Shown here piece after piece: positions 1-44,290 of a stretch of DNA of 64,000 nucleotides. Under the pieces are notes generated by a model. That model saw nothing but the letters and a program-made list of their open reading frames with translations. It ran no database searches and was not told where the DNA came from. Positions within the stretch are counted from its first letter, which is position 1. Every line of letters starts with the position of its first letter. The position numbers and the translations under genes were made by a program. The DNA lies in the NCBI RefSeq assembly GCF_022846255.1, contig NZ_AP025682.1, one strand, 5' to 3'. The DNA is from Escherichia coli. Lineage in GTDB: Bacteria; Pseudomonadota; Gammaproteobacteria; Enterobacterales; Enterobacteriaceae.

Positions 1-811
1 CTACACCGCTGGCGAAGCGGACTGACTCCGCTAAATCCCCACCTGTGGCCAGCGCCACCGCCAAAGCGCCGTGAAAAACATCACCCGCTCCTGTGGTATC
101 TACCACATCAACTTTGAAGGCCGGTTGATGTTGACGCCCGCCATTTTCCAGCCAGTCGCAGCCTGCGCTGCCCTGGGTCACATAGACATGACCATTTGTG
201 AGCGTTTGTGCCTGTTTTAGGGCACTCGCCATCTCTTTCACGCCCGTTAAGCGCGCCAGACCCGGTTCTGAAAAAGCTGCATGATCGCTTAACGCCACCA
301 GTTCGCTGATATCCTGCGGCGTAATATCACCGTCCAGCACGGTCATTACGCCCGCCTGCCGCGCCAGAGTGAAGGCTTTTTTCGCGCCGTCGTGCCAGCG
401 TACATCTGCCAGCACCACGTCCCACTGAGAGAAATCAATTTCCTCCAACCACTCTGCATCAGGCAGTAGGTCTGGGCTGGGATAGTTAATGATGATGCGC
501 TCACCTTTGGCATCCACCATGATGGCGGATTGCGAAGATTTCGCCTGGTTATACCGTTTGGTGTAACGGGTGTTAACACCCCAGGATTCCAGCTCTGCCA
601 GCAGGCTGTTGCCCGTGTCGTCGTCACCGACGCGACCAATAAAATCGACCTGCGCACCTAGTCTGGCCGCCGCAACTGCTGCTGTAGCCGCTGGCCCGCC
701 GCCAACTTCCGTATAATTTTTCGCCACGTATTTACCGCTCTCCGTCGGCAATCCTTCCACGTAATAGATGCGATCCATCACGGTAATTCCTACACAAGCA
801 ACACGAATCAT
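1..811 (-). CDS. yihV: 6-deoxy-6-sulfofructose kinase (pfkB/ribokinase family); C-terminal ~28 aa lie beyond the window edge
   Basis: Minus-strand reading frame from ATG at 809-811 translates MIRVACVGITVMDRIYYVEGLPTESGKYVAK...TTGAGDVFHGALAVALA; no stop inside window; divergent from yihU. Not in the ORF track because it is unterminated. Confidence 0.85.
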   Translation of the reverse strand, partial: MIRVACVGITVMDRIYYVEGLPTESGKYVAKNYTEVGGGPAATAAVAAARLGAQVDFIGRVGDDDTGNSLLAELESWGVNTRYTKRYNQAKSSQSAIMVDAKGERIIINYPSPDLLPDAEWLEEIDFSQWDVVLADVRWHDGAKKAFTLARQAGVMTVLDGDITPQDISELVALSDHAAFSEPGLARLTGVKEMASALKQAQTLTNGHVYVTQGSAGCDWLENGGRQHQPAFKVDVVDTTGAGDVFHGALAVALATGGDLAESVRFASGV

Positions 812-978
812 GGTCATTCCTTAAGCATTTTGGGATGCGTTCATTTTAATTTCATCAATTGTTTAAAAAGTGACGGCTGTCAATTTTTTGACGATAAATT
901 ACAAATACGATCAAAAACAGACAAGCAAGGCATGTCATAAATGACAAAAAGTGACATCACTGTATTCAGGAGAGAGTT
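812..978. promoter_or_regulatory. Divergent yihV/yihU promoter region with repeated AAAAAGTGAC motifs and a TGACGGCTGTCA palindrome (candidate CsqR/YihW operator sites)
   Basis: AT-rich 167 bp intergenic region between divergent genes; two copies of AAAAAGTGAC (around 860 and 941) and palindrome at 864-875; RBS AGGAGAG upstream of yihU ATG. Confidence 0.4.
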
Positions 979-1875
979 ATGGCAGCAATCGCGTTTATCG
1001 GTTTAGGGCAAATGGGTTCGCCAATGGCGAGCAATTTATTGCAGCAAGGGCATCAACTTTGCGTCTTCGATGTGAATACCGAAGCCGTACAGCATCTGGT
1101 CGACAAAGGGGCGACTCCCGCTGCTAACCCAGCGCAGGCCGCTAAAGGTGCCGAATTTATCATTACCATGTTGCCGAATGGCGATCTGGTGCGTCACGTG
1201 TTGTTCGGTGAAAACGGTGTCTGTGAGAGCTTATCTTCCGATGCGCTGGTCATTGATATGTCGACCATCCACCCGCTGCAAACCGATAAATTGATTGCTG
1301 ATATGCAGGCCAGAGGCTTCAGCATGATGGATGTTCCGGTAGGCCGTACTTCCGCAAATGCCATTACCGGTACTCTGCTACTGCTGGCTGGCGGCACTGC
1401 TGAACAAGTTGAACGCGCCACGCCGATCCTGATGGCGATGGGCAGCGAGTTGATCAACGCGGGCGGTCCGGGCATGGGGATCCGCGTTAAGCTTATCAAC
1501 AACTACATGAGCATCGCGCTCAATGCGTTGTCGGCAGAAGCCGCCGTTTTGTGCGAAGCCCTCAATCTTCCCTTCGATGTTGCCGTCAAGGTAATGAGCG
1601 GTACTGCCGCCGGTAAAGGCCACTTCACCACTTCCTGGCCGAACAAAGTCCTCAGCGGAGATCTTTCTCCCGCCTTCATGATCGATCTTGCCCATAAGGA
1701 TCTTGGCATCGCCCTTGATGTCGCCAACCAGTTGCATGTGCCGATGCCACTGGGGGCCGCCTCACGGGAGGTTTATAGCCAGGCGCGCGCAGCGGGTCGC
1801 GGTCGCCAGGACTGGTCCGCCATTCTGGAGCAGGTCCGTGTCAGTGCCGGGATGACTGCCAAAGTAAAAATGTAA
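979..1875 (+). CDS. yihU: 3-sulfolactaldehyde reductase (beta-hydroxyacid dehydrogenase family)
   Basis: 298 aa ORF, N-terminal Rossmann motif [13 protein letters not shown]; matches remembered E. coli YihU. Confidence 0.9.
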
Positions 1876-1898
1876 CGACTGGATAAAGGAATAAATGA

Positions 1899-2777
1899 AT
1901 GAATAAGTACACCATCAACGACATTACGCGTGCATCGGGCGGTTTTGCCATGCTGGCGGTCGATCAGCGCGAAGCCATGCGCATGATGTTTGCCGCGGCT
2001 GGCGCACCCGCTCCAGTAGCCGATAGCGTTTTAACTGATTTCAAAGTTAACGCCGCGAAGACTCTTTCACCTTATGCATCGGCGATTCTGGTAGATCAAC
2101 AATTCTGCTACCGCCAGGTGGTTGAGCAAAACGCGATTGCCAAAAGTTGCGCCATGATTGTCGCCGCCGATGAGTTCATTCCTGGCAACGGTATTCCGGT
2201 AGATAGCGTGGTCATTGACCGCAAAATCAATCCGCTACAAATCAAACAAGACGGTGGCAAAGCCTTAAAACTGCTGGTGCTGTGGCGTAGTGATGAAGAT
2301 GCGCAGCAACGCCTGGATATGGTGAAAGAGTTTAACGAAATGTGCCACTCACACGGTCTGGTAAGCATCATTGAGCCAGTCGTCCGCCCACCGCGTCGTG
2401 GCGATAAATTCGATCGCGAACAAGCAATCATCGATGCAGCCAAAGAGCTGGGCGACAGTGGCGCTGATCTCTACAAAGTTGAAATGCCGCTTTACGGTAA
2501 AGGTCCGCAACAAGAGCTTCTCAGTGCTTCACAACGTCTGAATGACCATATCAATATGCCGTGGGTGATCCTCTCTTCCGGTGTCGACGAAAAACTGTTC
2601 CCGCGTGCCGTACGCGTGGCAATGACAGCGGGTGCATCGGGCTTCCTGGCTGGTCGTGCCGTCTGGGCATCGGTCGTCGGTTTACCAGACAACGAGCTGA
2701 TGCTGCGTGACGTTTGCGCACCGAAATTACAACAACTTGGCGATATCGTCGACGAAATGATGGCTAAACGCCGTTAA
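1899..2777 (+). CDS. yihT: 6-deoxy-6-sulfofructose-1-phosphate aldolase
   Basis: 292 aa ORF 23 bp downstream of yihU; class I aldolase-like; synteny with sulfoglycolysis cluster. Confidence 0.9.
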
Positions 2778-2792
2778 GATGGGGATACAAAA

Positions 2793-4034
2793 ATGAAATG
2801 GTTTAACACTTTAAGTCACAACCGTTGGCTGGAACAGGAAACCGATCGCATCTTTGATTTTGGTAAAAAATCCGTAGTACCGACCGGATTTGGCTGGTTA
2901 GGCAATAAAGGGCAAATCAAAGAAGAGATGGGCACCCATCTGTGGATCACAGCTCGTATGTTGCACGTTTATTCCGTTGCTGCGGCGATGGGCCGACCTG
3001 GCGCTTACTCGTTGGTTGATCACGGTATCAAAGCCATGAATGGCGCACTGCGCGATAAAAAATATGGCGGTTGGTATGCCTGCGTGAATGACGAGGGCGT
3101 GGTGGATGCCTCCAAACAGGGCTATCAACATTTCTTTGCTCTGCTGGGTGCTGCCAGCGCCGTCACTACCGGTCATCCGGAAGCGCGCAAGCTGCTCGAT
3201 TACACCATTGAAATTATCGAGAAATACTTCTGGAGCGAAGAAGAGCAGATGTGCCTGGAGTCCTGGGATGAAGCCTTCAGCAAAACCGAAGAGTATCGCG
3301 GCGGCAATGCCAATATGCACGCGGTGGAAGCCTTCCTGATTGTCTATGACGTCACCCATGACAAAAAATGGCTGGATCGCGCGATTCGCGTGGCTTCCGT
3401 GATTATCCACGACGTCGCCAGAAATAATCATTATCGCGTTAACGAACACTTCGATACCCAGTGGAATCCGCTGCCAGATTACAACAAAGATAACCCGGCG
3501 CACCGCTTCCGCGCGTTCGGAGGTACTCCGGGCCACTGGATCGAATGGGGCCGTTTAATGCTGCACATTCACGCGGCCCTGGAAGCCCGTTGCGAACAAC
3601 CGCCAGCATGGCTGCTAGAAGATGCCAAAGGTCTGTTTAACGCCACCGTGCGCGATGCCTGGGCACCCGATGGCGCGGACGGGATTGTTTATACCGTTGA
3701 CTGGGAAGGAAAACCGGTGGTCCGCGAACGTGTGCGTTGGCCTATCGTCGAAGCGATGGGTACGGCCTACGCGCTCTACACCGTCACTGGCGATCGCCAG
3801 TACGAAACTTGGTATCAGACATGGTGGGACTACTGCATCAAATACCTGATGGACTACGAAAATGGTTCATGGTGGCAGGAGCTGGATGCGGACAATAAGG
3901 TCACCACCAAAGTCTGGGACGGCAAACAGGATATTTATCATCTGCTGCATTGTCTGGTGATCCCACGTATCCCGTTAGCGCCAGGCCTGGCTCCGGCGGT
4001 TGCGGCGGGTCTGCTGGATATTAACGCGAAATAA
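2793..4034 (+). CDS. yihS: sulfoquinovose isomerase (AGE/N-acylglucosamine epimerase-like fold)
   Basis: 413 aa ORF; synteny yihT-yihS-yihR. Confidence 0.9.
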
Positions 4035-4100
4035 CTGACTAAAAAAACGACATATCAGGCTGCACGCCGGGTATGTCGTTATTCAATAAAGGTACCTCGT

Positions 4101-5003
4101 ATGCAAATCACCAACATGCATTGCAGTGGACAGACCGTTTCACTTGCCGCGGGGGATTATCACGCGACCATTGTGACCGTCGGTGCAGGTCTGGCTGAAT
4201 TAACCTTTCAGGGCTGTCATTTAGTTATTCCGCATAAACCCGAAGAGATGCCGCTGGCACATCTGGGCAAAGTCCTTATTCCGTGGCCAAACCGGATCGC
4301 CAACGGCTGTTATCGCTATCAGGGGCAGGAATATCAGTTACCCATTAATGAACATGGTTCAAAAGCCGCTATTCATGGGCTGCTCGCCTGGCGTGACTGG
4401 CAAATCAGCGAATTAAGCGCCACCAGCGTCACATTAACCGCCTTTCTGCCACCCAGTTACGGCTACCCGTTTATGCTGGCTTCGCAGGTGGTTTATTCGC
4501 TCAACGCCCGCACGGGTCTTTCCGTTGAGATCGCAAGCCAGAATATCGGCACTGTCGCAGCGCCTTACGGTGTGGGTATTCACCCTTATTTAACCTGCAA
4601 CTTAACATCTGTTGATGAATATCTGTTCCAGCTTCCGGCAAACCAAGTTTATGCCATCGATGAGCACGCTAATCCGACAACGCTTCACCACGTTGATGAG
4701 CTGGATTTAAATTTCACGCAGGCGAAAAAAATAGCCGCGACAAAAATCGACCACACCTTTAAAACCGCTAATGATTTGTGGGAAATGACTATTACCCATC
4801 CACAGCAGGCGCTTTCGGTGAGCCTCTGTTCCGATCAACCCTGGGTGCAGGTTTATAGCGGTGAAAAATTACAACGTCAGGGACTGGCAGTTGAACCAAT
4901 GAGTTGCCCGCCTAACGCCTTTAATTCAGGTATCGACTTATTATTACTGGAACCAGGGAAAACGCACCGCCTGTTTTTTAATATTCACGGGCAGCACAAT
5001 TAA
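4101..5003 (+). CDS. yihR: aldose 1-epimerase family protein (sulfoquinovose mutarotase)
   Basis: 300 aa ORF MQITNMHCSGQTVSLAAGDYHATIV...; RBS AAAGG upstream. Confidence 0.85.
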   Translation: MQITNMHCSGQTVSLAAGDYHATIVTVGAGLAELTFQGCHLVIPHKPEEMPLAHLGKVLIPWPNRIANGCYRYQGQEYQLPINEHGSKAAIHGLLAWRDWQISELSATSVTLTAFLPPSYGYPFMLASQVVYSLNARTGLSVEIASQNIGTVAAPYGVGIHPYLTCNLTSVDEYLFQLPANQVYAIDEHANPTTLHHVDELDLNFTQAKKIAATKIDHTFKTANDLWEMTITHPQQALSVSLCSDQPWVQVYSGEKLQRQGLAVEPMSCPPNAFNSGIDLLLLEPGKTHRLFFNIHGQHN

Positions 5004-5063
5004 TTTTATTAAGAAAAGAACGAGATCATTGTTTAGAGTTGTATTTACACAACAGGAAATATT

Positions 5064-5939
5064 ATGGACTTTTTTACGTTATTTTCACCGGATGGGGTCA
5101 TGCTGGAAACAAACGTGGTATGTATCGTTATCGCGTTAATGTTTCTTTATACCTTTGTGGGGATATGCGCGGGATTTGGCGGTGGTTTAACCACCATGCC
5201 GCTCGTCACGTTAATGCTCCCCGTAAAAATGGCAACTCCGCTCTCGGTGATTGTCGGCACCGCGACCGCCTTGTACGCCACCTGGCTGTCACGTAAAGAA
5301 ACGGATTGGCGATCGGCAATGGTACTGATTATTTTCTCGTTTCTGGGAATACCCGTCGGTTTATATGCGCTGTCGTATTTACCCGACCATTTTATGAAAG
5401 TGGGCTTAGGCGGATTCCTTATCCTGTACTCCTTTTACAGTATGTTTATTCCACGCCTGCCGATTTATGACCGTAGCTGGATCGCCGCACCTATCGGCGC
5501 CGTGGCAGGAGCGTTAGGGGCAGCATTTTCAACCAACGGACCGCCGATGGTTATCTACGGTATGCTGCGTAACTTAGGCCCGGCGGCATTTCGCGGCACT
5601 CTGAACGCTTTCTTCACCGCAAACAACATCGCGGTGATCGGCGGGCTGGCGACCAGCGGAATTTTGACTGTCTCTATCTTTAAACTGGTGCTGTTTTGTA
5701 TTCCCACCATGATCCTCGGTTCACTGGTTGGACAATATGTGCATAAACGCATTTCGGTCAAAGTGTTCCGTGTGATGGTCTTTTTATTGCTGATTGCCTC
5801 CGGTTCTATGTTGATAAAAGGCGCGCTGGGAATTCCCGCCGCTGCCGCACTTCTTCCTCCGTTTACCTTGTTAGTTATACTGCAACTGGCATTTGGTAAA
5901 AAAGTGGCGGCAATCCGTCGGGCGGAAGAAAGTAAATAA
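5064..5939 (+). CDS. TauE/SafE (TSUP) family integral membrane protein, putative sulfite/organosulfonate exporter
   Basis: 291 aa ORF, highly hydrophobic with ~8 predicted TM segments and two Gly-rich repeats (GFGGGLTTMP, GALGAAFSTNGPPM) typical of 4-toluene sulfonate uptake permease/TauE proteins; RBS AGGAAA 7 bp upstream of ATG; sits between yihR and yihQ. Confidence 0.7.
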   Translation: MDFFTLFSPDGVMLETNVVCIVIALMFLYTFVGICAGFGGGLTTMPLVTLMLPVKMATPLSVIVGTATALYATWLSRKETDWRSAMVLIIFSFLGIPVGLYALSYLPDHFMKVGLGGFLILYSFYSMFIPRLPIYDRSWIAAPIGAVAGALGAAFSTNGPPMVIYGMLRNLGPAAFRGTLNAFFTANNIAVIGGLATSGILTVSIFKLVLFCIPTMILGSLVGQYVHKRISVKVFRVMVFLLLIASGSMLIKGALGIPAAAALLPPFTLLVILQLAFGKKVAAIRRAEESK

Positions 5940-5945
5940 TCATTA

Positions 5946-5969
5946 TGCGGGTTTTAATTTATACCCGCA
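5946..5969 (+). terminator. Weak hairpin (7 bp stem TGCGGGT/ACCCGCA) just after the TauE-like gene
   Basis: Inverted repeat 5946-5952/5963-5969 read from sequence; no strong T-run follows, so may be an attenuator or mRNA-stability element rather than a terminator. Confidence 0.3.
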
Positions 5970-6044
5970 CACATTCTTTAATTAATGAAACCTGTAATAA
6001 CAGGATGGCATGAAATATTAGTTTTATATCTATGGAGATTATTT

Positions 6045-8081
6045 ATGGATACGCCACGCCCACAGCTATTAGATTTTCAATTTCATCAGAATAACGACAG
6101 TTTTACTCTACGTTTTCAAGACCGCCTTATTTTAATCCATAGCAAAGATAATCCTTGTTTATGGATTGGTTCAGGTATAGCGGATATCGATATGTTCCGC
6201 GGTAATTTCAGCATTAAAGATAAATTGCAGGAGAAAATTGCGCTTACCGACGCCATCGTCAGCCAGTCACCGGATGGCTGGTTAATCCATTTCAGCCGTG
6301 GTTCTGACATTAGCGCCACGCTGAATATCTCTGCCGACGATCATGGCCGTTTATTGCTGGAACTACAAAACGACAACCTTAACCACAACCGCATCTGGCT
6401 GCGCCTTGCCGCACAGCCGGAAGATCATATCTACGGCTGCGGCGAACAATTCTCCTACTTTGATCTGCGCAGCAAACCGTTCCCGCTGTGGACCAGTGAA
6501 CAAGGCGTTGGTCGCAACAAACAAACCTATGTCACCTGGCAGGCCGACTGCAAAGAGAATGCGGGAGGGGATTACTACTGGACCTTCTTTCCACAACCCA
6601 CGTTTGTTAGCACGCAGAAGTATTACTGCCATGTTGATAACAGTTGCTATATGAACTTCGACTTTAGCGCGCCGGAATACCATGAACTGGCGCTGTGGGA
6701 AGACAAAGCAACACTGCGTTTTGAATGTGCTGATACATACATCTCCCTGCTGGAAAAATTAACCGCGCTGCTGGGACGCCAGCCAGAACTGCCCGACTGG
6801 ATTTATGACGGAGTAACGCTCGGCATTCAGGGCGGCACTGAGGTGTGCCAGAAGAAACTGGACACCATGCGTAACGCGGGCGTGAAGGTCAACGGCATCT
6901 GGGCGCAGGATTGGTCCGGTATTCGTATGACCTCTTTTGGCAAACGCGTAATGTGGAACTGGAAGTGGAACAGCGAAAACTACCCGCAACTGGATTCACG
7001 TATCAAGCAGTGGAACAAAGAGGGCGTACAGTTCCTTGCCTATATCAACCCGTATGTTGCCAGCGATAAAGACCTCTGCGAAGAAGCGGCAAAGCGCGGC
7101 TATCTGGCAAAAGATGCCGCCGGCGGCGATTATCTGGTGGAGTTTGGCGAGTTCTACGGCGGCGTTGTCGATCTCACTAATCCGGAAGCCTACGCCTGGT
7201 TCAAGGAAGTGATCAAAAAGAACATGATTGAACTCGGCTGCGGCGGCTGGATGGCTGACTTCGGCGAGTATCTGCCCACCGACACTTACCTGCATAACGG
7301 CGTCAGCGCCGAAATTATGCATAACGCCTGGCCTGCGCTGTGGGCGAAATGTAACTACGAAGCCCTTGAAGAAACGGGCAAGCTCGGCGAGATCCTCTTC
7401 TTTATGCGCGCCGGTTCCACCGGTAGCCAAAAATATTCCACCATGATGTGGGCGGGCGACCAGAACGTTGACTGGAGTCTGGACGATGGACTGGCGTCTG
7501 TCGTCCCGGCGGCGCTGTCGCTGGCAATGACCGGACATGGCCTGCATCACAGTGATATTGGCGGTTACACCACCCTGTTTGAGATGAAGCGCAGCAAAGA
7601 GCTGCTGCTGCGCTGGTGCGATTTCAGCGCCTTCACGCCGATGATGCGCACCCATGAAGGTAACCGTCCAGGCGACAACTGGCAGTTTGATAGCGACGCG
7701 GAAACTATCGCCCATTTTGCCCGTATGACCACCGTCTTCACTACCCTGAAACCTTACCTGAAAGAGGCCGTCGCGCTGAATGCGAAGTCCGGCCTGCCGG
7801 TTATGCGCCCGCTGTTCCTGCATTACGAAGACGATGCACAGACCTACACCCTGAAATATCAGTACCTGTTAGGCCGCGACATTCTGGTCGCTCCGGTGCA
7901 TGAAGAAGGCCGTAGCGACTGGACGCTCTATCTGCCGGAGGATAACTGGGTCCACGCCTGGACGGGTGAAGCGTTCCGGGGCGGGGAAGTGACCGTTAAT
8001 GCGCCCATCGGTAAACCGCCGGTCTTTTATCGCGCCGATAGCGAATGGGCGGCACTGTTCGCGTCGTTAAAAAGCATCTAA
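6045..8081 (+). CDS. yihQ: sulfoquinovosidase (GH31 alpha-glucosidase family)
   Basis: ORF track starts at 5985; true start taken as ATG 6045 (MDTPRPQLLDFQFHQ...) with RBS GGAG upstream, giving 678 aa. Confidence 0.9.
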   Translation: MDTPRPQLLDFQFHQNNDSFTLRFQDRLILIHSKDNPCLWIGSGIADIDMFRGNFSIKDKLQEKIALTDAIVSQSPDGWLIHFSRGSDISATLNISADDHGRLLLELQNDNLNHNRIWLRLAAQPEDHIYGCGEQFSYFDLRSKPFPLWTSEQGVGRNKQTYVTWQADCKENAGGDYYWTFFPQPTFVSTQKYYCHVDNSCYMNFDFSAPEYHELALWEDKATLRFECADTYISLLEKLTALLGRQPELPDWIYDGVTLGIQGGTEVCQKKLDTMRNAGVKVNGIWAQDWSGIRMTSFGKRVMWNWKWNSENYPQLDSRIKQWNKEGVQFLAYINPYVASDKDLCEEAAKRGYLAKDAAGGDYLVEFGEFYGGVVDLTNPEAYAWFKEVIKKNMIELGCGGWMADFGEYLPTDTYLHNGVSAEIMHNAWPALWAKCNYEALEETGKLGEILFFMRAGSTGSQKYSTMMWAGDQNVDWSLDDGLASVVPAALSLAMTGHGLHHSDIGGYTTLFEMKRSKELLLRWCDFSAFTPMMRTHEGNRPGDNWQFDSDAETIAHFARMTTVFTTLKPYLKEAVALNAKSGLPVMRPLFLHYEDDAQTYTLKYQYLLGRDILVAPVHEEGRSDWTLYLPEDNWVHAWTGEAFRGGEVTVNAPIGKPPVFYRADSEWAALFASLKSI

Positions 8082-8126
8082 TCACATCCGCCCGTGGGGA
8101 AACTCACGGGCAAAGGGAGAACAACG

Positions 8127-9512
8127 ATGAGTCACATCACAACGGAAGATCCAGCAACTCTACGCCTGCCCTTTAAAGAGAAACTCTCTTACGGTATCGG
8201 CGATCTGGCCTCTAACATCCTACTGGATATCGGCACGCTTTATCTTTTGAAGTTTTATACCGATGTTCTGGGGCTGCCTGGCACCTATGGCGGCATTATC
8301 TTTTTGATTTCAAAATTCTTTACCGCCTTTACCGATATGGGTACCGGCATTATGTTGGATTCCCGACGCAAGATCGGTCCAAAAGGTAAGTTCCGTCCTT
8401 TTATTCTGTATGCGTCATTTCCGGTCACCCTGCTGGCGATCGCCAACTTTGTCGGCACACCGTTTGATGTCACCGGTAAAACGGTGATGGCCACCATCCT
8501 GTTTATGCTTTACGGACTGTTTTTCAGCATGATGAACTGCTCGTATGGCGCGATGGTCCCCGCTATTACTAAAAACCCCAACGAACGCGCCTCACTGGCG
8601 GCATGGCGTCAGGGTGGCGCTACATTGGGCCTGCTGCTTTGTACGGTGGGATTCGTGCCGGTTATGAATCTTATCGAGGGTAATCAGCAACTTGGCTATA
8701 TCTTCGCCGCCACGCTGTTTTCACTGTTCGGCCTGCTGTTTATGTGGATCTGCTATTCGGGCGTGAAAGAGCGTTATGTCGAAACCCAACCTACCAATCC
8801 GGCGCAAAAGCCTGGCTTGTTGCAATCTTTCCGCGCAATTGCGGGGAACCGCCCACTGTTCATTTTGTGCATTGCCAACCTCTGTACCTTAGGGGCGTTT
8901 AACGTCAAGCTCGCCATTCAGGTCTATTACACCCAGTACGTGCTTAACGATCCCATCCTGTTGTCATATATGGGATTTTTCAGCATGGGCTGTATTTTCA
9001 TCGGCGTGTTCCTGATGCCTGGTGCAGTCAGACGTTTTGGTAAGAAGAAGGTCTATATCGGCGGTCTGCTGATCTGGGTGCTGGGCGATCTGCTCAACTA
9101 TTTCTTCGGCGGCGGCTCGGTCAGCTTTGTGGCTTTCTCCTGCCTGGCGTTCTTTGGTTCGGCGTTTGTTAACAGCCTGAACTGGGCGCTGGTTTCTGAC
9201 ACCGTCGAGTACGGCGAGTGGCGCACCGGTGTGCGTTCAGAAGGTACGGTCTACACCGGTTTCACCTTCTTTCGCAAAGTATCTCAGGCGCTGGCAGGTT
9301 TCTTCCCAGGCTGGATGCTGACGCAAATTGGCTATGTGCCAAACGTCGCCCAGGCTGACCACACTATCGAAGGGTTGCGCCAACTGATCTTCATCTACCC
9401 AAGCGCACTGGCAGTAGTCACCATTGTGGCAATGGGTTGCTTCTACAGTCTGAACGAGAAGATGTACGTCCGCATTGTTGAAGAGATAGAAGCCCGTAAA
9501 CGCACGGCGTAA
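8127..9512 (+). CDS. yihP: GPH-family sugar:cation symporter (proposed DHPS exporter)
   Basis: Start at ATG 8127 (MSHITTEDPATLRL) after RBS AAGGGAGA; 12-TM melibiose-permease-like sequence; paralog of downstream yihO. Confidence 0.85.
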   Translation: MSHITTEDPATLRLPFKEKLSYGIGDLASNILLDIGTLYLLKFYTDVLGLPGTYGGIIFLISKFFTAFTDMGTGIMLDSRRKIGPKGKFRPFILYASFPVTLLAIANFVGTPFDVTGKTVMATILFMLYGLFFSMMNCSYGAMVPAITKNPNERASLAAWRQGGATLGLLLCTVGFVPVMNLIEGNQQLGYIFAATLFSLFGLLFMWICYSGVKERYVETQPTNPAQKPGLLQSFRAIAGNRPLFILCIANLCTLGAFNVKLAIQVYYTQYVLNDPILLSYMGFFSMGCIFIGVFLMPGAVRRFGKKKVYIGGLLIWVLGDLLNYFFGGGSVSFVAFSCLAFFGSAFVNSLNWALVSDTVEYGEWRTGVRSEGTVYTGFTFFRKVSQALAGFFPGWMLTQIGYVPNVAQADHTIEGLRQLIFIYPSALAVVTIVAMGCFYSLNEKMYVRIVEEIEARKRTA

Positions 9513-9554
9513 TTATAATAAACAACGCCCTGCGGGGCGTTATAAGGAGTGATT

Positions 9555-10958
9555 ATGTCTGACCATAATCCACTGACATTAAAACTGAATCTGCGGGAAA
9601 AAATCGCCTATGGTATGGGCGACGTCGGTTCGAATTTAATGCTTAGCATCGGCACTCTGTATCTCCTCAAATTTTATACCGATGAATTAGGGATGCCTGC
9701 TTACTATGGCGGGATTATCTTTCTGGTGGCGAAATTCTTTACCGCATTTACCGATATGCTCACCGGATTTTTACTCGACTCGCGGAAAAATATTGGACCT
9801 AAAGGAAAATTCAGGCCGTTTATTTTATACGCAGCGATTCCGGCGGCGTTAATTGCAACGCTCCAGTTTATCGCCACCACCTTTAGTTTGCCGGTTAAAA
9901 CGACGATTGCCACCGCACTGTTTATGATGTTTGGACTTTCATACAGTCTGATGAACTGCTCGTATGGCGCGATGATCCCGGCCATTACCAAAAACCCGAA
10001 TGAGCGCGCGCAACTCGCTGCTTACCGCCAGGGTGGTGCAACCATAGGGCTATTGATCTGTACCGTGGCGTTTATTCCTTTGCAGTCACTATTTTCTGAC
10101 TCCACCGTCGGCTACGCCTGCGCGGCACTGATGTTCTCCATTGGCGGCTTTATTTTTATGATGCTGTGCTACAGAGGTGTCAAAGAGCATTATGTGGACG
10201 CGACGCCAACCGGACATAAGGCCAGTATTCTCAAATCATTTTGCGCGATATTTCGTAATCCACCTTTGCTGGTATTGTGCATTGCTAACCTGTGTACCCT
10301 GGCGGCATTTAATATCAAACTGGCGATTCAGGTCTATTACACCCAGTATGTGCTGAATGATATTAACTTATTGTCGTGGATGGGATTCTTTAGTATGGGA
10401 TGCATTCTCATCGGCGTATTACTGGTGCCACTAACTGTAAAATGTTTTGGTAAAAAACAGGTTTATCTGGCTGGCATGGTGCTGTGGGCGGTGGGGGATA
10501 TCCTGAATTATTGCTGGGGCAGTAACTCATTCACTTTCGTCATGTTCTCTTGTGTCGCCTTTTTTGGCACGGCCTTTGTAAACAGCCTGAACTGGGCACT
10601 GGTACCAGATACCGTAGATTATGGTGAATGGAAAACAGGTATACGTGCCGAAGGTTCTGTTTATACCGGTTATACCTTCTTTCGTAAAATTTCAGCCGCA
10701 CTTGCTGGCTTCTTGCCCGGCATTATGCTGACGCAAATCGGTTATATTCCCAACATCGCGCAAAGCGATGCAACATTACAGGGTTTGCGTCAGCTCATTT
10801 TTATCTGGCCTTGTGCGCTGGCAATTATTGCTGCATTGACGATGGGGTTCTTTTACACGCTCAATGAGAAACGGTTTGCACTGATTATTGAGGAAATTAA
10901 CCAACGCAAAAATAAAGAAATCGAGACAGAAGAAAAAACGGCTTCCGTAACGTTATAA
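9555..10958 (+). CDS. yihO: GPH-family sulfoquinovose importer
   Basis: Start ATG 9555 (MSDHNPLTLKL) after RBS AAGGAGTG; 467 aa; strong similarity to yihP product. Confidence 0.85.
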   Translation: MSDHNPLTLKLNLREKIAYGMGDVGSNLMLSIGTLYLLKFYTDELGMPAYYGGIIFLVAKFFTAFTDMLTGFLLDSRKNIGPKGKFRPFILYAAIPAALIATLQFIATTFSLPVKTTIATALFMMFGLSYSLMNCSYGAMIPAITKNPNERAQLAAYRQGGATIGLLICTVAFIPLQSLFSDSTVGYACAALMFSIGGFIFMMLCYRGVKEHYVDATPTGHKASILKSFCAIFRNPPLLVLCIANLCTLAAFNIKLAIQVYYTQYVLNDINLLSWMGFFSMGCILIGVLLVPLTVKCFGKKQVYLAGMVLWAVGDILNYCWGSNSFTFVMFSCVAFFGTAFVNSLNWALVPDTVDYGEWKTGIRAEGSVYTGYTFFRKISAALAGFLPGIMLTQIGYIPNIAQSDATLQGLRQLIFIWPCALAIIAALTMGFFYTLNEKRFALIIEEINQRKNKEIETEEKTASVTL

Positions 10959-11025
10959 ATGTCAATAGCCGCTATTTCCATCCTGATGGGTGGCGGCCTC
11001 CCTACGTTTAAAAAATGGACTTATT

Positions 11026-11718
11026 ATGAAAAATATTAATGCAATAATTTTATTATCTTCTCTGACCTCTGCCTCGGTATTCGCTGGCGCATACGTCGAA
11101 AACAGGGAAGCATATAATCTCGCCTCCGATCAGGGCGAGGTTATGCTACGTGTGGGTTATAACTTCGATATGGGCGCGGGTATTATGCTAACCAATACCT
11201 ACACCTTTCAGCGAGAAGATTAACTCAAACATGGCTATAATGAAATTGAAGGTTGGTATCCTTTATTTAAACCTACCGATAAATTAACCATCCAGCCCGG
11301 TGGCTTAATTAATGACAAGAGTATCGGTTCGGGTGGTGCTGTTTATCTGGATGTTAACTACAAATTTACTCCGTGGTTTAACCTGACGGTGCGTAATCGC
11401 TATAACCATAATAATTACAGCTCTACAGATTTGAACGGCGAATTGGATAATAACGACACCTATGAAGTTGGCACCTACTGGAACTTTAAAATAACAGAAA
11501 AATTTTCCTATACATTTGAACCACATTACTTCATGCGAGTGAATGACTTTAATAGTAGCAACGGGAAAGATCATCATTGGGAAATCACTAACACCTTCCG
11601 TTACCGTATTAATGAACACTGGCTTCCTTATTTCGAATTGCGCTGGTTAGACCGCAACGTCGAGCCGTACCACCGCGAGCAAAACCAGATTCGTATCGGA
11701 ACGAAGTATTTCTTCTGA
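11026..11718 (+). pseudogene. ompL: outer membrane porin OmpL interrupted by an in-frame TAA stop at 11221-11223
   Basis: Signal peptide MKNINAIILLSSLTSASVFA then porin sequence; reading frame has TAA after ...TYTFQRED and continues in the same frame (LKHGYNEIEGWYPLFKPTDKLTIQPGG...YFF) to the normal end at 11718. Confidence 0.75.
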
Positions 11719-11728
11719 TGTAAAAATT

Positions 11729-11764
11729 CCTGATGCGATGCTGGCGCATCTTATCAGGTCTACA
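11729..11764. repeat. REP (repetitive extragenic palindromic) element
   Basis: TCCTGATGCGATGCTGGCGCATCTTATCAGGTCTAC resembles canonical E. coli REP consensus. Confidence 0.5.
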
Positions 11765-11770
11765 AAAGCC

Positions 11771-11802
11771 AAAAAAAACCTGCCATCGCTGGCAGGTTTT
11801 TT
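11771..11802. terminator. Bidirectional rho-independent terminator between convergent ompL and typA
   Basis: Hairpin CCTGCCA-TCGC-TGGCAGG flanked by A-run on the left and T-run on the right. Confidence 0.6.
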
Positions 11803-11819
11803 ATGACTAAAAAACGAAA

Positions 11820-13643
11820 TTAATCGTCTTTCGGTGCGCGGTTGGCGCGACGACGATCGTTTTCCGTCAGGTGACGTTTACGAATACGGATAGAGGTCGG
11901 AGTCACTTCTACCAGTTCGTCATCATCGATGAACTCCAGAGCTTGTTCCAGAGTCATGCGGATAGGCGGAACCAGAACAACGGCTTCGTCAGTACCGGAA
12001 GCACGCATGTTGGTCAGTTTCTTACCGGTCAGGCAGTTTACAGTCAGGTCGTTAGAGCGGCTGTGAATACCGATAATCTGACCTTCGTAAACTTCAGCAC
12101 CGTGACCGAGGAACAGCTTACCGCGATCCTGCAGACCGAACAGCGCGAACGCTACCGCTTTACCCTGACCGTTAGAGATCAGTACGCCGTTCTGACGCTG
12201 GCCCACTTCACCCGGACGTACGTCGTCGTAGTGGCTGAAGGTGGAGTACAGCAGACCAGTACCGGAAGTCATGGTCATGAACTCAGAACGGAAGCCAATC
12301 AGACCACGGCTTGGGATCACGTAGTCGAGACGTACGCGGCCTTTACCGTCTGGATTCATGTTTTTCAGGTCGCCTTTACGTTCGCCCAGCGCCTGCATTA
12401 CAGAACCCTGATGCTGTTCTTCAACGTCCAGAGTCACGTTTTCATACGGCTCTTGTTTACGACCGTCGATTTCACGGAAGATAACTTTCGGACGGGATAC
12501 CGCCAGTTCGAAACCTTCACGACGCATGTTTTCGATAAGAACAGACAGGTGCAGTTCGCCACGACCAGAAACGCGGAACGCATCGGCGTCTTCGGTTTCT
12601 TCTACGCGCAGCGCAACGTTGTGTACCAGTTCTTTGTTCAGACGATCCAGGATCTGACGAGACGTTACGAACTTACCTTCTTTACCGCAGAACGGCGAGG
12701 TGTTAACGCAGAAGAACATAGAAACGGTCGGCTCATCAACGGAGAGTGCCGGCAGCGCTTCAACGTTTTGCGTGTCGCAAACGGTGTCAGAAATGTTCAG
12801 TTCGCCAAGACCCGTGATCGCCACGATATCGCCAGCTTCCGCCAGATCGGTTTCGATACGTTCCAGACCGAGGTGGCCCAGCACTTTACCGACTTTCGCG
12901 TTGCGGGTTTTGCCTTCGCTATCGATGATAGTAACCTGCTGGTTCGGCTTCACTTTACCGCGCTTGATGCGGCCAATGCCGATAACGCCAACATAGCTGT
13001 TGTAATCGAGCTGAGAAATCTGCATCTGGAACGGACCGTCAAGGTCAACGTCCGGCGCAGGAACGTGGTCAACAATCGCCTGGTACAGCGGGGTCATGTC
13101 TTCCGCCATATCTTCGTGGTCCAGACCCGCGATACCGTTCAGCGCAGAAGCGTAAACGATCGGGAAGTCCAGCTGCTCGTCGGTCGCGTCGAGGTTAACG
13201 AACAGATCGAATACCTGATCCACAACCCAATCAGGACGCGCGCCAGGGCGGTCAACTTTGTTGATAACAACAATCGGCTTCAGGCCGTAAGCAAACGCTT
13301 TTTTGGTTACGAAGCGCGTTTGCGGCATCGGGCCGTCAAATGCGTCAACCACCAGCAGCACTGAGTCTACCATGGACATTACACGTTCAACTTCACCACC
13401 GAAGTCGGCGTGCCCCGGGGTATCAACGATGTTGATACGGTAATCATTCCATTTGATAGCGGTGTTTTTCGCGAGGATGGTAATCCCACGCTCTTTCTCC
13501 AAATCGTTGGAGTCCATCACGCGCTCTTGGGTTTCGGCACGAGAGTCGAACGTACCGGATTGTTGGAGCAGCTTGTCTACCAGGGTGGTTTTACCATGGT
13601 CTACGTGCGCGATGATGGCGATATTACGCAATTTTTCGATCAC
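11820..13643 (-). CDS. typA: ribosome-dependent translational GTPase BipA/TypA
   Basis: 607 aa; N-terminal G-domain [18 protein letters not shown]; EF-G-like. Confidence 0.95.
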
Positions 13644-13794
13644 AACTTTGCCTCAGGCATTAGAAATAGCGCGTTATTGTACACGGATTAATCGCACTAC
13701 AAAACAGGATCACAAACATCCTCCGCAAACAAGTATTGCAGAGTCCCTTTGTGATCGCTTTCACGGAGCATAAAAAGGGTTATCCAAAGGTCAT

Positions 13795-13844
13795 TGCACC
13801 AATATGGTGCTTAATGTTCCCATTGAAGCACTATATTGGTGCAA
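13795..13844 (+). promoter_or_regulatory. NtrC (NRI) enhancer sites upstream of glnA
   Basis: Two dyads TGCACCAATATGGTGCT (13795-13811) and GCACTATATTGGTGCAA (13828-13844) matching NtrC consensus TGCACC-N5-GGTGCA. Confidence 0.7.
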
Positions 13845-15425: not shown

Positions 15426-15485
15426 TAGTTGAAGTTGTACTACCCGGCGCAACAACGCCGGGATTTAGTTGCCGTGGAAACTTTC

Positions 15486-15512
15486 AGCCCATCTCTGCAT
15501 GGGCTTTTTTCT
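15486..15512 (+). terminator. glnA rho-independent terminator
   Basis: Hairpin AGCCCAT-CTCTGC-ATGGGCT followed by TTTTTT. Confidence 0.6.
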
Positions 15513-15555
15513 CCGTCAATTCTCTGATGCTTCGCGCTTTTTATCCGTAAAAAGC

Positions 15556-15577
15556 TATAATGCACTAAAATGGTGCA
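15556..15577 (+). promoter_or_regulatory. glnL promoter -10 (TATAAT) overlapped by an NtrC operator (TGCACTAAAATGGTGCA)
   Basis: TATAAT at 15556-15561 immediately followed by NtrC-consensus dyad 15561-15577. Confidence 0.6.
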
Positions 15578-15598
15578 ACCTGTTCAGGAGACTGCTTT

Positions 15599-44174: not shown

Positions 44175-44290
44175 CTTGCCGGATGCGGCGTGAACGCCTT
44201 ATCCGGCCTACCGATCCTGCACCCATGTGGGTCTGATAAGAAGCGCCAGCGTCGCATCAGGCATCGTGCATCGATTGCCGGATGCGACAT
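44175..44290. repeat. BIME (REP cluster) downstream of fadA
   Basis: GCCGGATGCGGCGTGAACGCCTTATCCGGCCTAC, CTGATAAGAAGCGCCAGCGTCGCATCAGGC, GCCGGATGCGACA units. Confidence 0.7.

What the first reader, a model, noticed from the sequence alone, without database searches (positions are those of the whole stretch)
11719..11819. typA and ompL are directly adjacent; yihL-yihM-yihN appear to be absent
From my recollection of K-12 gene order, yihL (regulator), yihM (sugar-phosphate isomerase-like) and yihN (MFS transporter) lie between typA and ompL. Here only ~100 bp containing a REP element and a bidirectional terminator separates the two convergent genes. This is a second structural difference in the sulfoquinovose neighbourhood, alongside the extra TauE gene and the ompL nonsense codon.
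Basis: partly seen in the sequence, partly recalled or inferred. Interest (0 to 1): 0.35.

Follow-up and report, generated by a model that had tools for sequence, protein, structure and literature searches.

The report
Common E. coli variant lacking yihLMN
This E. coli strain really does lack the three genes yihL, yihM and yihN that lie between typA and ompL in the laboratory strain K-12, but this is an old, widespread gene-content variant seen in hundreds of public genomes and in the sister species E. albertii, so it is ordinary.

Summary
ompL (+, stop 11716-11718) and typA (-, stop 11820-11822) converge on a 101-bp spacer. It holds one REP element (11729-11763) and one hairpin flanked by A and T runs (11771-11802). 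K-12 MG1655 has 3,301 bp carrying yihL-yihM-yihN at this point; the window has 30 bp.

This is not a private deletion. Among 5,426 complete E. coli genomes:
- 215 have the same typA|ompL junction, including SE15.
- 624 more join typA directly to the "short" yih cassette, including UTI89 and S88.
- About 4,240 carry yihLMN.

The window's backbone is 99.2% identical to UTI89 and 97.7% to K-12, so it looks like phylogroup B2.

E. albertii carries both alleles with the same breakpoints. Its yihLMN is 91% identical to K-12's. All 192 informative flank sites group by species and none by allele. The polymorphism therefore looks older than the two species, or was exchanged long ago. Which state came first is unresolved: Citrobacter has typA|ompL adjacent, Pseudocitrobacter has an orthologous typA|yihLMN, and Salmonella has a different six-gene cassette there.

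The TauE gene is an independent polymorphism (1,287 genomes). The ompL nonsense codon is missing from two close relatives. Interest is low.

The parts
11026..11718 (+). ompL (porin OmpL), the last gene of the 'long' sulfoquinovose (yih) cassette. In this strain it is a pseudogene, with GAA changed to TAA at codon 66 (11221-11223).
   Evidence: Translation. 97% amino-acid identity to K-12 OmpL. The codon is intact in FHI_NMBU_03, SE15, K-12 and E. albertii.
11719..11819 (.). The 101-bp spacer between the convergent stop codons of ompL and typA. This is the 'empty' allele of the yihLMN site.
   Evidence: The same junction covers at least 80% of the query in 215 of 5,426 genomes.
11729..11763 (+). 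REP (repetitive extragenic palindromic) element, CCTGATGCGATGCTGGCGCATCTTATCAGGTCTAC.
   Evidence: Inverted repeat. Folds at -16.5 kcal/mol, z -4.7. A second copy lies in the window at 44227-44258 against 0 expected. A 36-nt exact match occurs at an unrelated place in another genome (H30).
11738..11767 (.). The 30 nt specific to the empty allele: the loop and right arm of the REP plus AAAA. They stand where K-12 has 3,301 bp (MG1655 4,060,283-4,063,583) with yihN, yihM and yihL.
   Evidence: Gap between the two BLAST segments. Breakpoints read off the sequences. The same segment, with one mismatch, is in the E. albertii empty alleles L006 and L101.
11771..11802 (.). A hairpin with the shape of a bidirectional intrinsic terminator: A8, stem CCTGCCA/TGGCAGG, loop TCGC, T6. 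It is the typA terminator. By symmetry it probably also serves ompL.
   Evidence: Terminator scan, - strand. Folds. The hairpin is conserved in E. coli, E. albertii and Pseudocitrobacter with or without yihLMN. Termination itself was not tested.
11820..13643 (-). typA (bipA), a ribosome-dependent GTPase.
   Evidence: 100% amino-acid identity to K-12 BipA. Annotated as such in the matching genomes.
5064..5939 (+). Context: a TauE/SafE family gene between yihR and yihQ. K-12 lacks it. It varies independently of yihLMN.
   Evidence: Pfam PF01925, E 8e-35. Present in 1,287 of 5,426 genomes including O157:H7. Also in Salmonella, Pseudocitrobacter and E. albertii.

Best explanation
The window comes from a B2-like E. 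coli. It carries the 'empty' allele of an old presence/absence polymorphism for the three-gene yihLMN unit: a GntR/UTRA regulator, a xylose-isomerase-like TIM-barrel protein and an MFS transporter.

In this allele the long sulfoquinovose cassette ends at ompL and abuts typA. The two convergent transcripts are separated only by a REP hairpin and by the typA intrinsic terminator. The A run and T run of that terminator should let it stop transcription from both sides. This last step is inferred from the sequence and was not measured.

The haplotype was inherited, is typical of its lineage, and has the same breakpoints in E. albertii, where both alleles also occur.

The only consequence expected is loss of whatever sugar-derivative uptake and isomerisation function yihLMN encodes. 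Sulfoquinovose catabolism should not depend on it, because yihLMN and the sulfoquinovose cassette occur in all four combinations. This is an inference.
For: Anatomy and the comparison with K-12.

Haplotype counts in 5,426 complete genomes, from junction queries covered at 80% or more:
- typA-yihLMN-ompL (long cassette): 3,492.
- typA-yihLMN-short cassette: 736.
- typA-short cassette: 624, including UTI89, S88, IHE3034, NC101 and ATCC 11775.
- typA-ompL, as in the window: 215, including SE15.
- yihLMN covered at 80% or more in 4,239 genomes; no match at all in 1,000.

Lineage. The window backbone from typA to polA is 99.2% identical to UTI89, 98.8% to SE15 and 97.65% to K-12.

E. albertii.
- The type strain and L101 (plus 5 similar places) have REP + AAAAGC + terminator, as in the window.
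- L102-L105 (plus 4 similar places) have yihLMN with the K-12 breakpoints.
- E. albertii yihLMN is 91% identical to K-12's, against 96% for typA and glnA and 88-89% for yihO and yihQ.
- In 3 kb of flanks, 192 of 192 two-by-two informative sites group by species and none by allele.

Age of the filled arrangement. The yihL-typA spacer and the typA terminator are orthologous in two Pseudocitrobacter-like genomes.

Independence from the sulfoquinovose cassette. All four combinations exist. Pseudocitrobacter L007 has yihLMN and no sulfoquinovose cassette.
Against: - Phylogroups were not typed. 'B2-like' rests on recognisable reference strains and on backbone identity. 359 of the 5,426 genomes fit none of the four junction classes.
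- The empty-allele-specific segment is only 30 nt and is mostly generic REP sequence, so it cannot be dated.
- Terminator function, and any phenotype of losing yihLMN, are untested.
Confidence: 0.78

Rival explanations
1. A recent deletion of yihLMN, private to this strain or its immediate clone. It could be mediated by the REP element and would go along with the decay of ompL.
For: ompL is inactivated in this strain only, among the genomes compared. A REP sits exactly at one breakpoint. An IS1-mediated deletion does occur at this locus in another strain, L005.
Against: - The identical junction is present in 215 complete genomes of diverse hosts and in E. albertii.
- The nearest relative, FHI_NMBU_03, has the same junction with an intact ompL.
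- No second REP or direct repeat exists at the typA end of any filled allele to template such a deletion.
Confidence: 0.02
2. Parallel, independent losses of yihLMN in E. coli B2 and in part of E. albertii. A site-directed process, for example the REP-associated transposase, would have produced the same junction twice.
For: The flanks are strictly species-specific right up to the breakpoints. That is what independent events inside each species would give. The breakpoint lies inside or next to a REP.
Against: The empty alleles of both species share 30 nt that are not present anywhere in the filled alleles: ATGCTGGCGCATCTTATCAGG(C/T)CTACAAAA. A deletion cannot create that sequence. It would also need the same REP replacement to occur twice.
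Confidence: 0.07
3. Exchange between species rather than shared ancestry. One allele arose in one species and was later moved into the other by homologous recombination.
For: - The region is recombinogenic. Long and short yih cassettes are interspersed over the tree (PMC12608037), and all four combinations exist.
- Sulfoquinovose genes appear to have moved into a Pseudocitrobacter-like genome.
Against: - E. albertii yihLMN is 91% identical to E. coli's, about the species-level divergence seen in neighbouring genes. That rules out a recent transfer of the filled allele.
- Transfer of the empty allele would need a conversion tract under about 100 bp, because no flank site groups by allele.
Confidence: 0.12
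4. An assembly or sampling artefact: a collapsed or mis-joined contig that dropped 3.3 kb.
For: None.
Against: The same contiguous junction is present in 215 independently finished genomes and is annotated without gaps.
Confidence: 0.01

Closest known systems
E. coli K-12 MG1655 bipA(typA)-yihL-yihM-yihN-ompL region (b3871-b3875)
   Same: typA, its terminator hairpin, ompL and the whole long yih cassette are collinear. A REP follows ompL at the same position.
   Different: - K-12 has 3,301 bp with yihLMN between the REP and the typA terminator; the window has 30 bp.
- The K-12 REP is the GCCGGATGCGGCGTAAACGCCTTATCCGGCCTAC type.
- K-12 lacks TauE.
- The sulfoquinovose genes are only about 95% identical in DNA, although 97-99% in protein.
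E. coli SE15 and FHI_NMBU_03, annotated RefSeq genomes with typA next to ompL
   Same: Identical gene order yihU-T-S-R-tauE-yihQ-P-O-ompL | typA-glnA. The junction is 99.3-99.8% identical. The cassette is 99.4-99.9% identical.
   Different: Their ompL is intact; the window has TAA at codon 66.
E. albertii empty allele (NBRC 107761 type strain; CP099910)
   Same: The same REP loop and right arm, then AAAAGCC, then the terminator. typA and ompL are 101-107 bp apart. TauE is present.
   Different: The flanks are species-specific: ompL 84% and typA 96% identical to the window. The left REP arm is CCGGAT, which mismatches its partner, where E. coli has CCTGAT. Other E. albertii genomes carry yihLMN.
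Long versus short yih cassette polymorphism (Kaznadzey et al. 2025, PMC12608037)
   Same: Same locus and the same kind of phenomenon: alternative gene contents at a fixed chromosomal position, interspersed over the tree. The window has the 'long' form.
   Different: That paper does not mention yihL, yihM or yihN. The yihLMN polymorphism is a second, adjacent and separately assorting one.
Six-gene cassette between ompL and typA in Salmonella and Superficieibacter
   Same: It occupies the same spot between ompL and typA.
   Different: The cargo is unrelated: sulfatase, radical-SAM/HemN_C, ATP-grasp, HAD-type hydrolase and two proteins with no Pfam hit. Nothing of it is in the window.

Membership tests
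REP (repetitive extragenic palindromic) element | An imperfect palindrome of about 35 nt with the motif GATGCG...CTTATC and a 3' CTAC | tested here: met
   CCTGATGCGATGCTGGCGCATCTTATCAGGTCTAC at 11729-11763. Inverted repeat. Hairpin at -16.5 kcal/mol, z -4.7.
REP (repetitive extragenic palindromic) element | Lies outside genes, typically after a stop codon | tested here: met
   It starts 11 nt after the ompL stop and ends 57 nt before the typA stop.
REP (repetitive extragenic palindromic) element | Many dispersed copies per genome | tested here: met
   A second copy lies in the window at 44227-44258, with 0 expected from shuffles. A 36-nt exact match occurs elsewhere in another genome (H30). 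The K-12 REP at the same site gives a median of 27 places per genome.
Bidirectional intrinsic (Rho-independent) terminator | A G+C-rich stem-loop followed by a U run on each strand | tested here: met
   A8-CCTGCCA-TCGC-TGGCAGG-T6. The scan called it on the - strand. On the + strand the T6 run follows the G+C stem directly. The scan did not call that strand, probably because it extends the stem through the A/T runs. Folds.
Bidirectional intrinsic (Rho-independent) terminator | Transcripts actually end there, from both directions | not testable with these tools
   This needs Term-seq or 3' RACE.
K-12-type typA-yihLMN-ompL arrangement | yihL, yihM and yihN present between typA and ompL | tested here: not met
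   BLAST gap. No tblastn hit to YihL, YihM or YihN in the whole window.
'Long' yih (sulfo-EMP) cassette, as defined by Kaznadzey et al. 2025 | ompL-yihO-P-Q-R-S-T-U plus a divergent yihV(W) at the typA/yihX locus | tested here: met
   All are present at 97-99% amino-acid identity. The window starts inside yihV, so yihW lies outside it.
Genomic island or mobile element, as the nature of the yihLMN segment | An integrase or transposase, a tRNA or att site, and flanking direct repeats | tested here: not met
   The segment encodes only a GntR/UTRA regulator, an AP_endonuc_2 TIM-barrel protein and an MFS transporter. No target-site duplication is visible at the breakpoints. Its G+C content of 45%, against 50-53% around it, is the only island-like trait.

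The most novel reading that the evidence does not exclude
The presence or absence of yihLMN is a true trans-species polymorphism. Both alleles would have been kept since before E. coli and E. albertii split, rather than drifting to loss, which implies niche-dependent (balancing) selection on an operon of unknown function. The typA-ompL spacer would then be a family-wide cargo site, because it holds yihLMN in Escherichia and Pseudocitrobacter and a sulfatase/radical-SAM cassette in Salmonella and Superficieibacter.
Probability: 0.3. Interest if true: 0.4.

Novelty: already known. Interest (0 to 1): 0.15.

Why it matters
It matters little for biology at large. It shows that K-12 gene order is not the species norm at this locus. 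About one fifth of complete E. coli genomes lack yihLMN, including reference strains I recognise as extraintestinal pathogens of phylogroup B2. Comparisons against K-12 will flag such differences as 'deletions' when they are inherited alleles.

The one mildly useful point is evolutionary. The same two alleles, with the same breakpoints, occur in both E. coli and E. albertii. This makes the locus a compact case for studying how long gene-content polymorphisms persist. It also offers natural yihLMN-minus backgrounds for working out the operon's unknown function.

Tried and rejected
- REP-REP recombination as the origin of the empty allele. I looked for a second REP, or for the 30-nt empty-allele sequence, at the typA end of filled alleles from K-12, strain 613, four E. 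albertii genomes and two Pseudocitrobacter-like genomes. None was found, so I rejected this idea.
- Linkage of TauE with the loss of yihLMN. Rejected, because TauE is in 1,287 genomes, including O157:H7, and an O157:H7 genome shows the split junction expected when yihLMN is present.
- Outgroup survey with TypA in genome contigs. It returned only one Escherichia species other than E. coli (E. albertii) and no Salmonella. I recovered part of this through OmpL homologues and exact-protein look-ups.
- Contigs L095 and L096, carrying OmpL at 81-84% identity. They proved to be error-rich E. coli assemblies with fragmented genes, so I did not use them.
- State of phylogroups D and F. UMN026 (NC_011751) is not in the collection. 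One IAI39 request failed on the size limit. In IAI39 the gene order near this region differs from K-12, and two 50-kb reads did not reach typA. I gave this up.
- Literature. No paper in the library discusses yihL, yihM and yihN together as a variable unit. In the 2025 yih-cassette paper, the main text and the one supplementary file held as text do not mention them.
- The jump in identity at the junction, from about 95% to 99% against K-12. I did not read it as a recombination breakpoint, because typA is under much stronger constraint than the yih genes.

Full report
**What is in the sequence**

ompL occupies 11026-11718 on the + strand and ends with TGA at 11716-11718. typA occupies 11820-13643 on the - strand, with its stop at 11820-11822.

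The spacer contains two elements.
- A REP palindrome, CCTGATGCGATGCTGGCGCATCTTATCAGGTCTAC, at 11729-11763. It is an inverted repeat and folds at -16.5 kcal/mol, z -4.7. A second copy lies at 44227-44258, where shuffles give none.
- A hairpin, A8-CCTGCCA-TCGC-TGGCAGG-T6, at 11771-11802. It folds at -25.3 kcal/mol, z -6.3. The terminator scan called it on the typA strand.

The symmetrical A and T runs make the hairpin a plausible terminator for both convergent genes. That is an inference from its shape, not a measurement.

**Comparison with K-12**

The annotated MG1655 record reads glnA, bipA(typA), yihL, yihM, yihN, ompL, yihO and so on.

BLAST aligns the window to MG1655 up to 4,063,584 on the ompL side and from 4,060,282 on the typA side. 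K-12 thus has 3,301 bp where the window has 30 nt (11738-11767).

Reading the breakpoints gives more detail. Both alleles have a REP right after ompL and share its left arm up to GATGCG. After that point:
- The filled allele continues GCGTAAACGCCTTATCCGGCCTAC-GGTTG..., runs through yihN, yihM and yihL, and ends ...GACAGGC.
- The empty allele continues ATGCTGGCGCATCTTATCAGGTCTAC-AAAA-GCC.
- Both then run into the same typA terminator.

There is no target-site duplication, integrase or transposase. The three proteins are a GntR/UTRA regulator, a xylose-isomerase-like TIM-barrel protein and an MFS transporter. No YihL, YihM or YihN homologue occurs elsewhere in the window.

**How common it is**

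I used 400-bp junction queries against 5,426 complete E. coli genomes and counted genomes covered at 80% or more.

| Arrangement | Genomes | Examples |
|---|---|---|
| typA-yihLMN-ompL (long cassette) | 3,492 | K-12 |
| typA-yihLMN-short cassette | 736 | ATCC 8739, O104:H4 |
| typA-short cassette, no yihLMN | 624 | UTI89, S88, IHE3034, UM146, NU14, NC101, ATCC 11775 |
| typA-ompL, as in the window | 215 | SE15 |

yihLMN itself is covered at 80% or more in 4,239 genomes and has no match in 1,000. 359 genomes fit none of the four classes. One such case, L005, is an IS1-associated deletion.

From my own knowledge, the reference strains I recognise among those lacking yihLMN belong to phylogroup B2, and those I recognise among the carriers belong to other phylogroups. 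The window's backbone from typA to polA is 99.2% identical to UTI89 and 98.8% to SE15, but 97.65% to K-12. I did not type phylogroups, so 'B2-like' is an inference, and sister groups such as G may be included.

The long/short cassette polymorphism is published (Kaznadzey et al. 2025, PMC12608037). That paper does not mention yihLMN.

**Outgroups**

| Organism (locus) | What lies between typA and ompL or the yih genes |
|---|---|
| Citrobacter werkmanii, C. youngae (L009, L010) | Nothing: typA and ompL adjacent, other spacer sequence |
| Unnamed enterobacterial contig (L097) | Nothing: typA and ompL adjacent, other spacer sequence |
| Kluyvera, an Enterobacter sp., Pectobacterium | Nothing: typA directly beside yihO |
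| Salmonella Newport, Superficieibacter | An unrelated six-gene cassette (sulfatase, radical-SAM, ATP-grasp, HAD-type hydrolase, two with no Pfam hit) |
| Two Pseudocitrobacter-like genomes (L007, L087) | yihLMN |

In the Pseudocitrobacter-like genomes the yihL-typA spacer and the typA terminator align base for base with K-12. Both the 'adjacent' and the 'yihLMN' arrangements are therefore old.

**E. albertii is decisive about age**

The type strain has the window's junction almost to the nucleotide. I then looked up its exact OmpL protein. This returned E. albertii chromosomes of both kinds:
- L101, plus 5 similar places, with ompL next to typA.
- L102-L105, plus 4 similar places, with ompL-yihN-yihM-yihL-typA.

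All of these are E. albertii by typA and glnA: 99% identical to the type strain and 96% to E. coli. Their yihLMN is 91% identical to K-12's. That lies between the values for typA/glnA (96%) and yihO/yihQ (88-89%), so it is at species-level divergence and not a recent import.

Breakpoints and REP type match the corresponding E. coli allele in each case. I compared 1.5 kb on each side in a four-way set: E. coli empty, E. coli filled, E. albertii empty, E. albertii filled. All 192 two-by-two informative sites group by species and none by allele.

The simplest reading is that both alleles existed before the two species separated, or were exchanged long ago, and that recombination has since erased linkage in the flanks. 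Parallel deletion is unlikely, because the empty alleles share 30 nt that no filled allele contains. Which allele is ancestral cannot be decided from these data.

- TauE (5064-5939; Pfam PF01925) is present in 1,287 genomes, including O157:H7. An O157:H7 genome shows the split junction expected when yihLMN is present. TauE is also in Salmonella, Pseudocitrobacter and E. albertii. It therefore varies independently of yihLMN. K-12's lack of it is probably the derived state.
- The ompL stop is a single G-to-T change (GAA to TAA, 11221). It is missing from FHI_NMBU_03, SE15, K-12 and E. albertii.

**Function and consequence (inferred)**

yihLMN and the sulfoquinovose cassette occur in all four combinations. 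yihLMN also occurs without any sulfoquinovose cassette in Pseudocitrobacter L007. The sulfoquinovose-induced genes listed for K-12 in the paper's main text and in the one supplementary file held as text do not include yihLMN; this is weak evidence. I therefore expect sulfoquinovose use to be unaffected by the absence of yihLMN. In this strain the ompL nonsense codon is the more relevant lesion.

**Verdict**

What it describes is an ordinary, already annotated, lineage-typical haplotype. The only point of some interest is that the same two alleles occur in two species.

Noticed in passing
window 11221-11223: The ompL nonsense codon is a single G-to-T change (GAA to TAA, codon 66). The codon is intact in the two closest genomes examined (FHI_NMBU_03, SE15), in K-12 and in E. 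albertii. So it looks missing from close relatives, and it is unrelated to the yihLMN allele.
   Followed up: partly
window 5064-5939: The 'extra' TauE/SafE gene between yihR and yihQ is in 1,287 of 5,426 E. coli genomes. It is also in the sulfoquinovose clusters of Salmonella, Pseudocitrobacter and E. albertii. K-12's lack of it is probably the derived state.
   Followed up: partly
window 15426-15598 (glnA-glnL spacer): The spacer is 173 nt in the window, UTI89 and SE15. It is 285 nt in K-12, where the glnZ sRNA is annotated, 318 nt in strain 613 and 287 nt in E. albertii. This is a second lineage-typical indel, close to typA.
   Followed up: partly
window 13725-13832 (- strand): Full-length Rfam match to the ES222 sRNA (132 bits; gathering score 62), just upstream of the typA start.
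   Followed up: no
window 11729-11763 versus L101 7700-7740 and L006: The REP stem differs between species in the empty allele. In E. albertii the left arm is CCGGAT opposite ATCAGG, which is a mismatch. In E. coli it is CCTGAT, a perfect pair. The E. albertii REP therefore looks like a chimera of the two REP types.
   Followed up: partly
L091 673-6264 (Salmonella Newport); L013 10107-15666 (Superficieibacter): A six-gene cassette sits between ompL and typA in these genera, at the spot where E. coli has yihLMN or nothing. It encodes a sulfatase, a radical-SAM/HemN_C protein, an ATP-grasp protein, a HAD-type hydrolase and two proteins with no Pfam hit. The two cassettes are 70-79% identical in protein.
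   Followed up: partly
L087 1-7929: In a Pseudocitrobacter-like contig, yihS to yihO are 90-94% identical to E. coli. That is closer than E. albertii is (88-90%). Its ompL (79-82%), yihLMN (77-84%) and typA (about 90%) are at ordinary intergeneric distance. This suggests horizontal transfer of the sulfoquinovose genes.
   Followed up: partly
window 1-11737: The whole sulfoquinovose cassette is about 95% identical to K-12 in DNA but 97-99% in protein, while the adjacent typA is 99.5% identical in DNA. This is deep, mostly synonymous divergence of the cassette haplotypes.
   Followed up: no
L005 6001-7100 (strain LCP22S3_I2): In this strain an IS1 sits just after typA, and everything from yihL to yihQ is missing. 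This is an example of a real, recent deletion at the locus.
   Followed up: no
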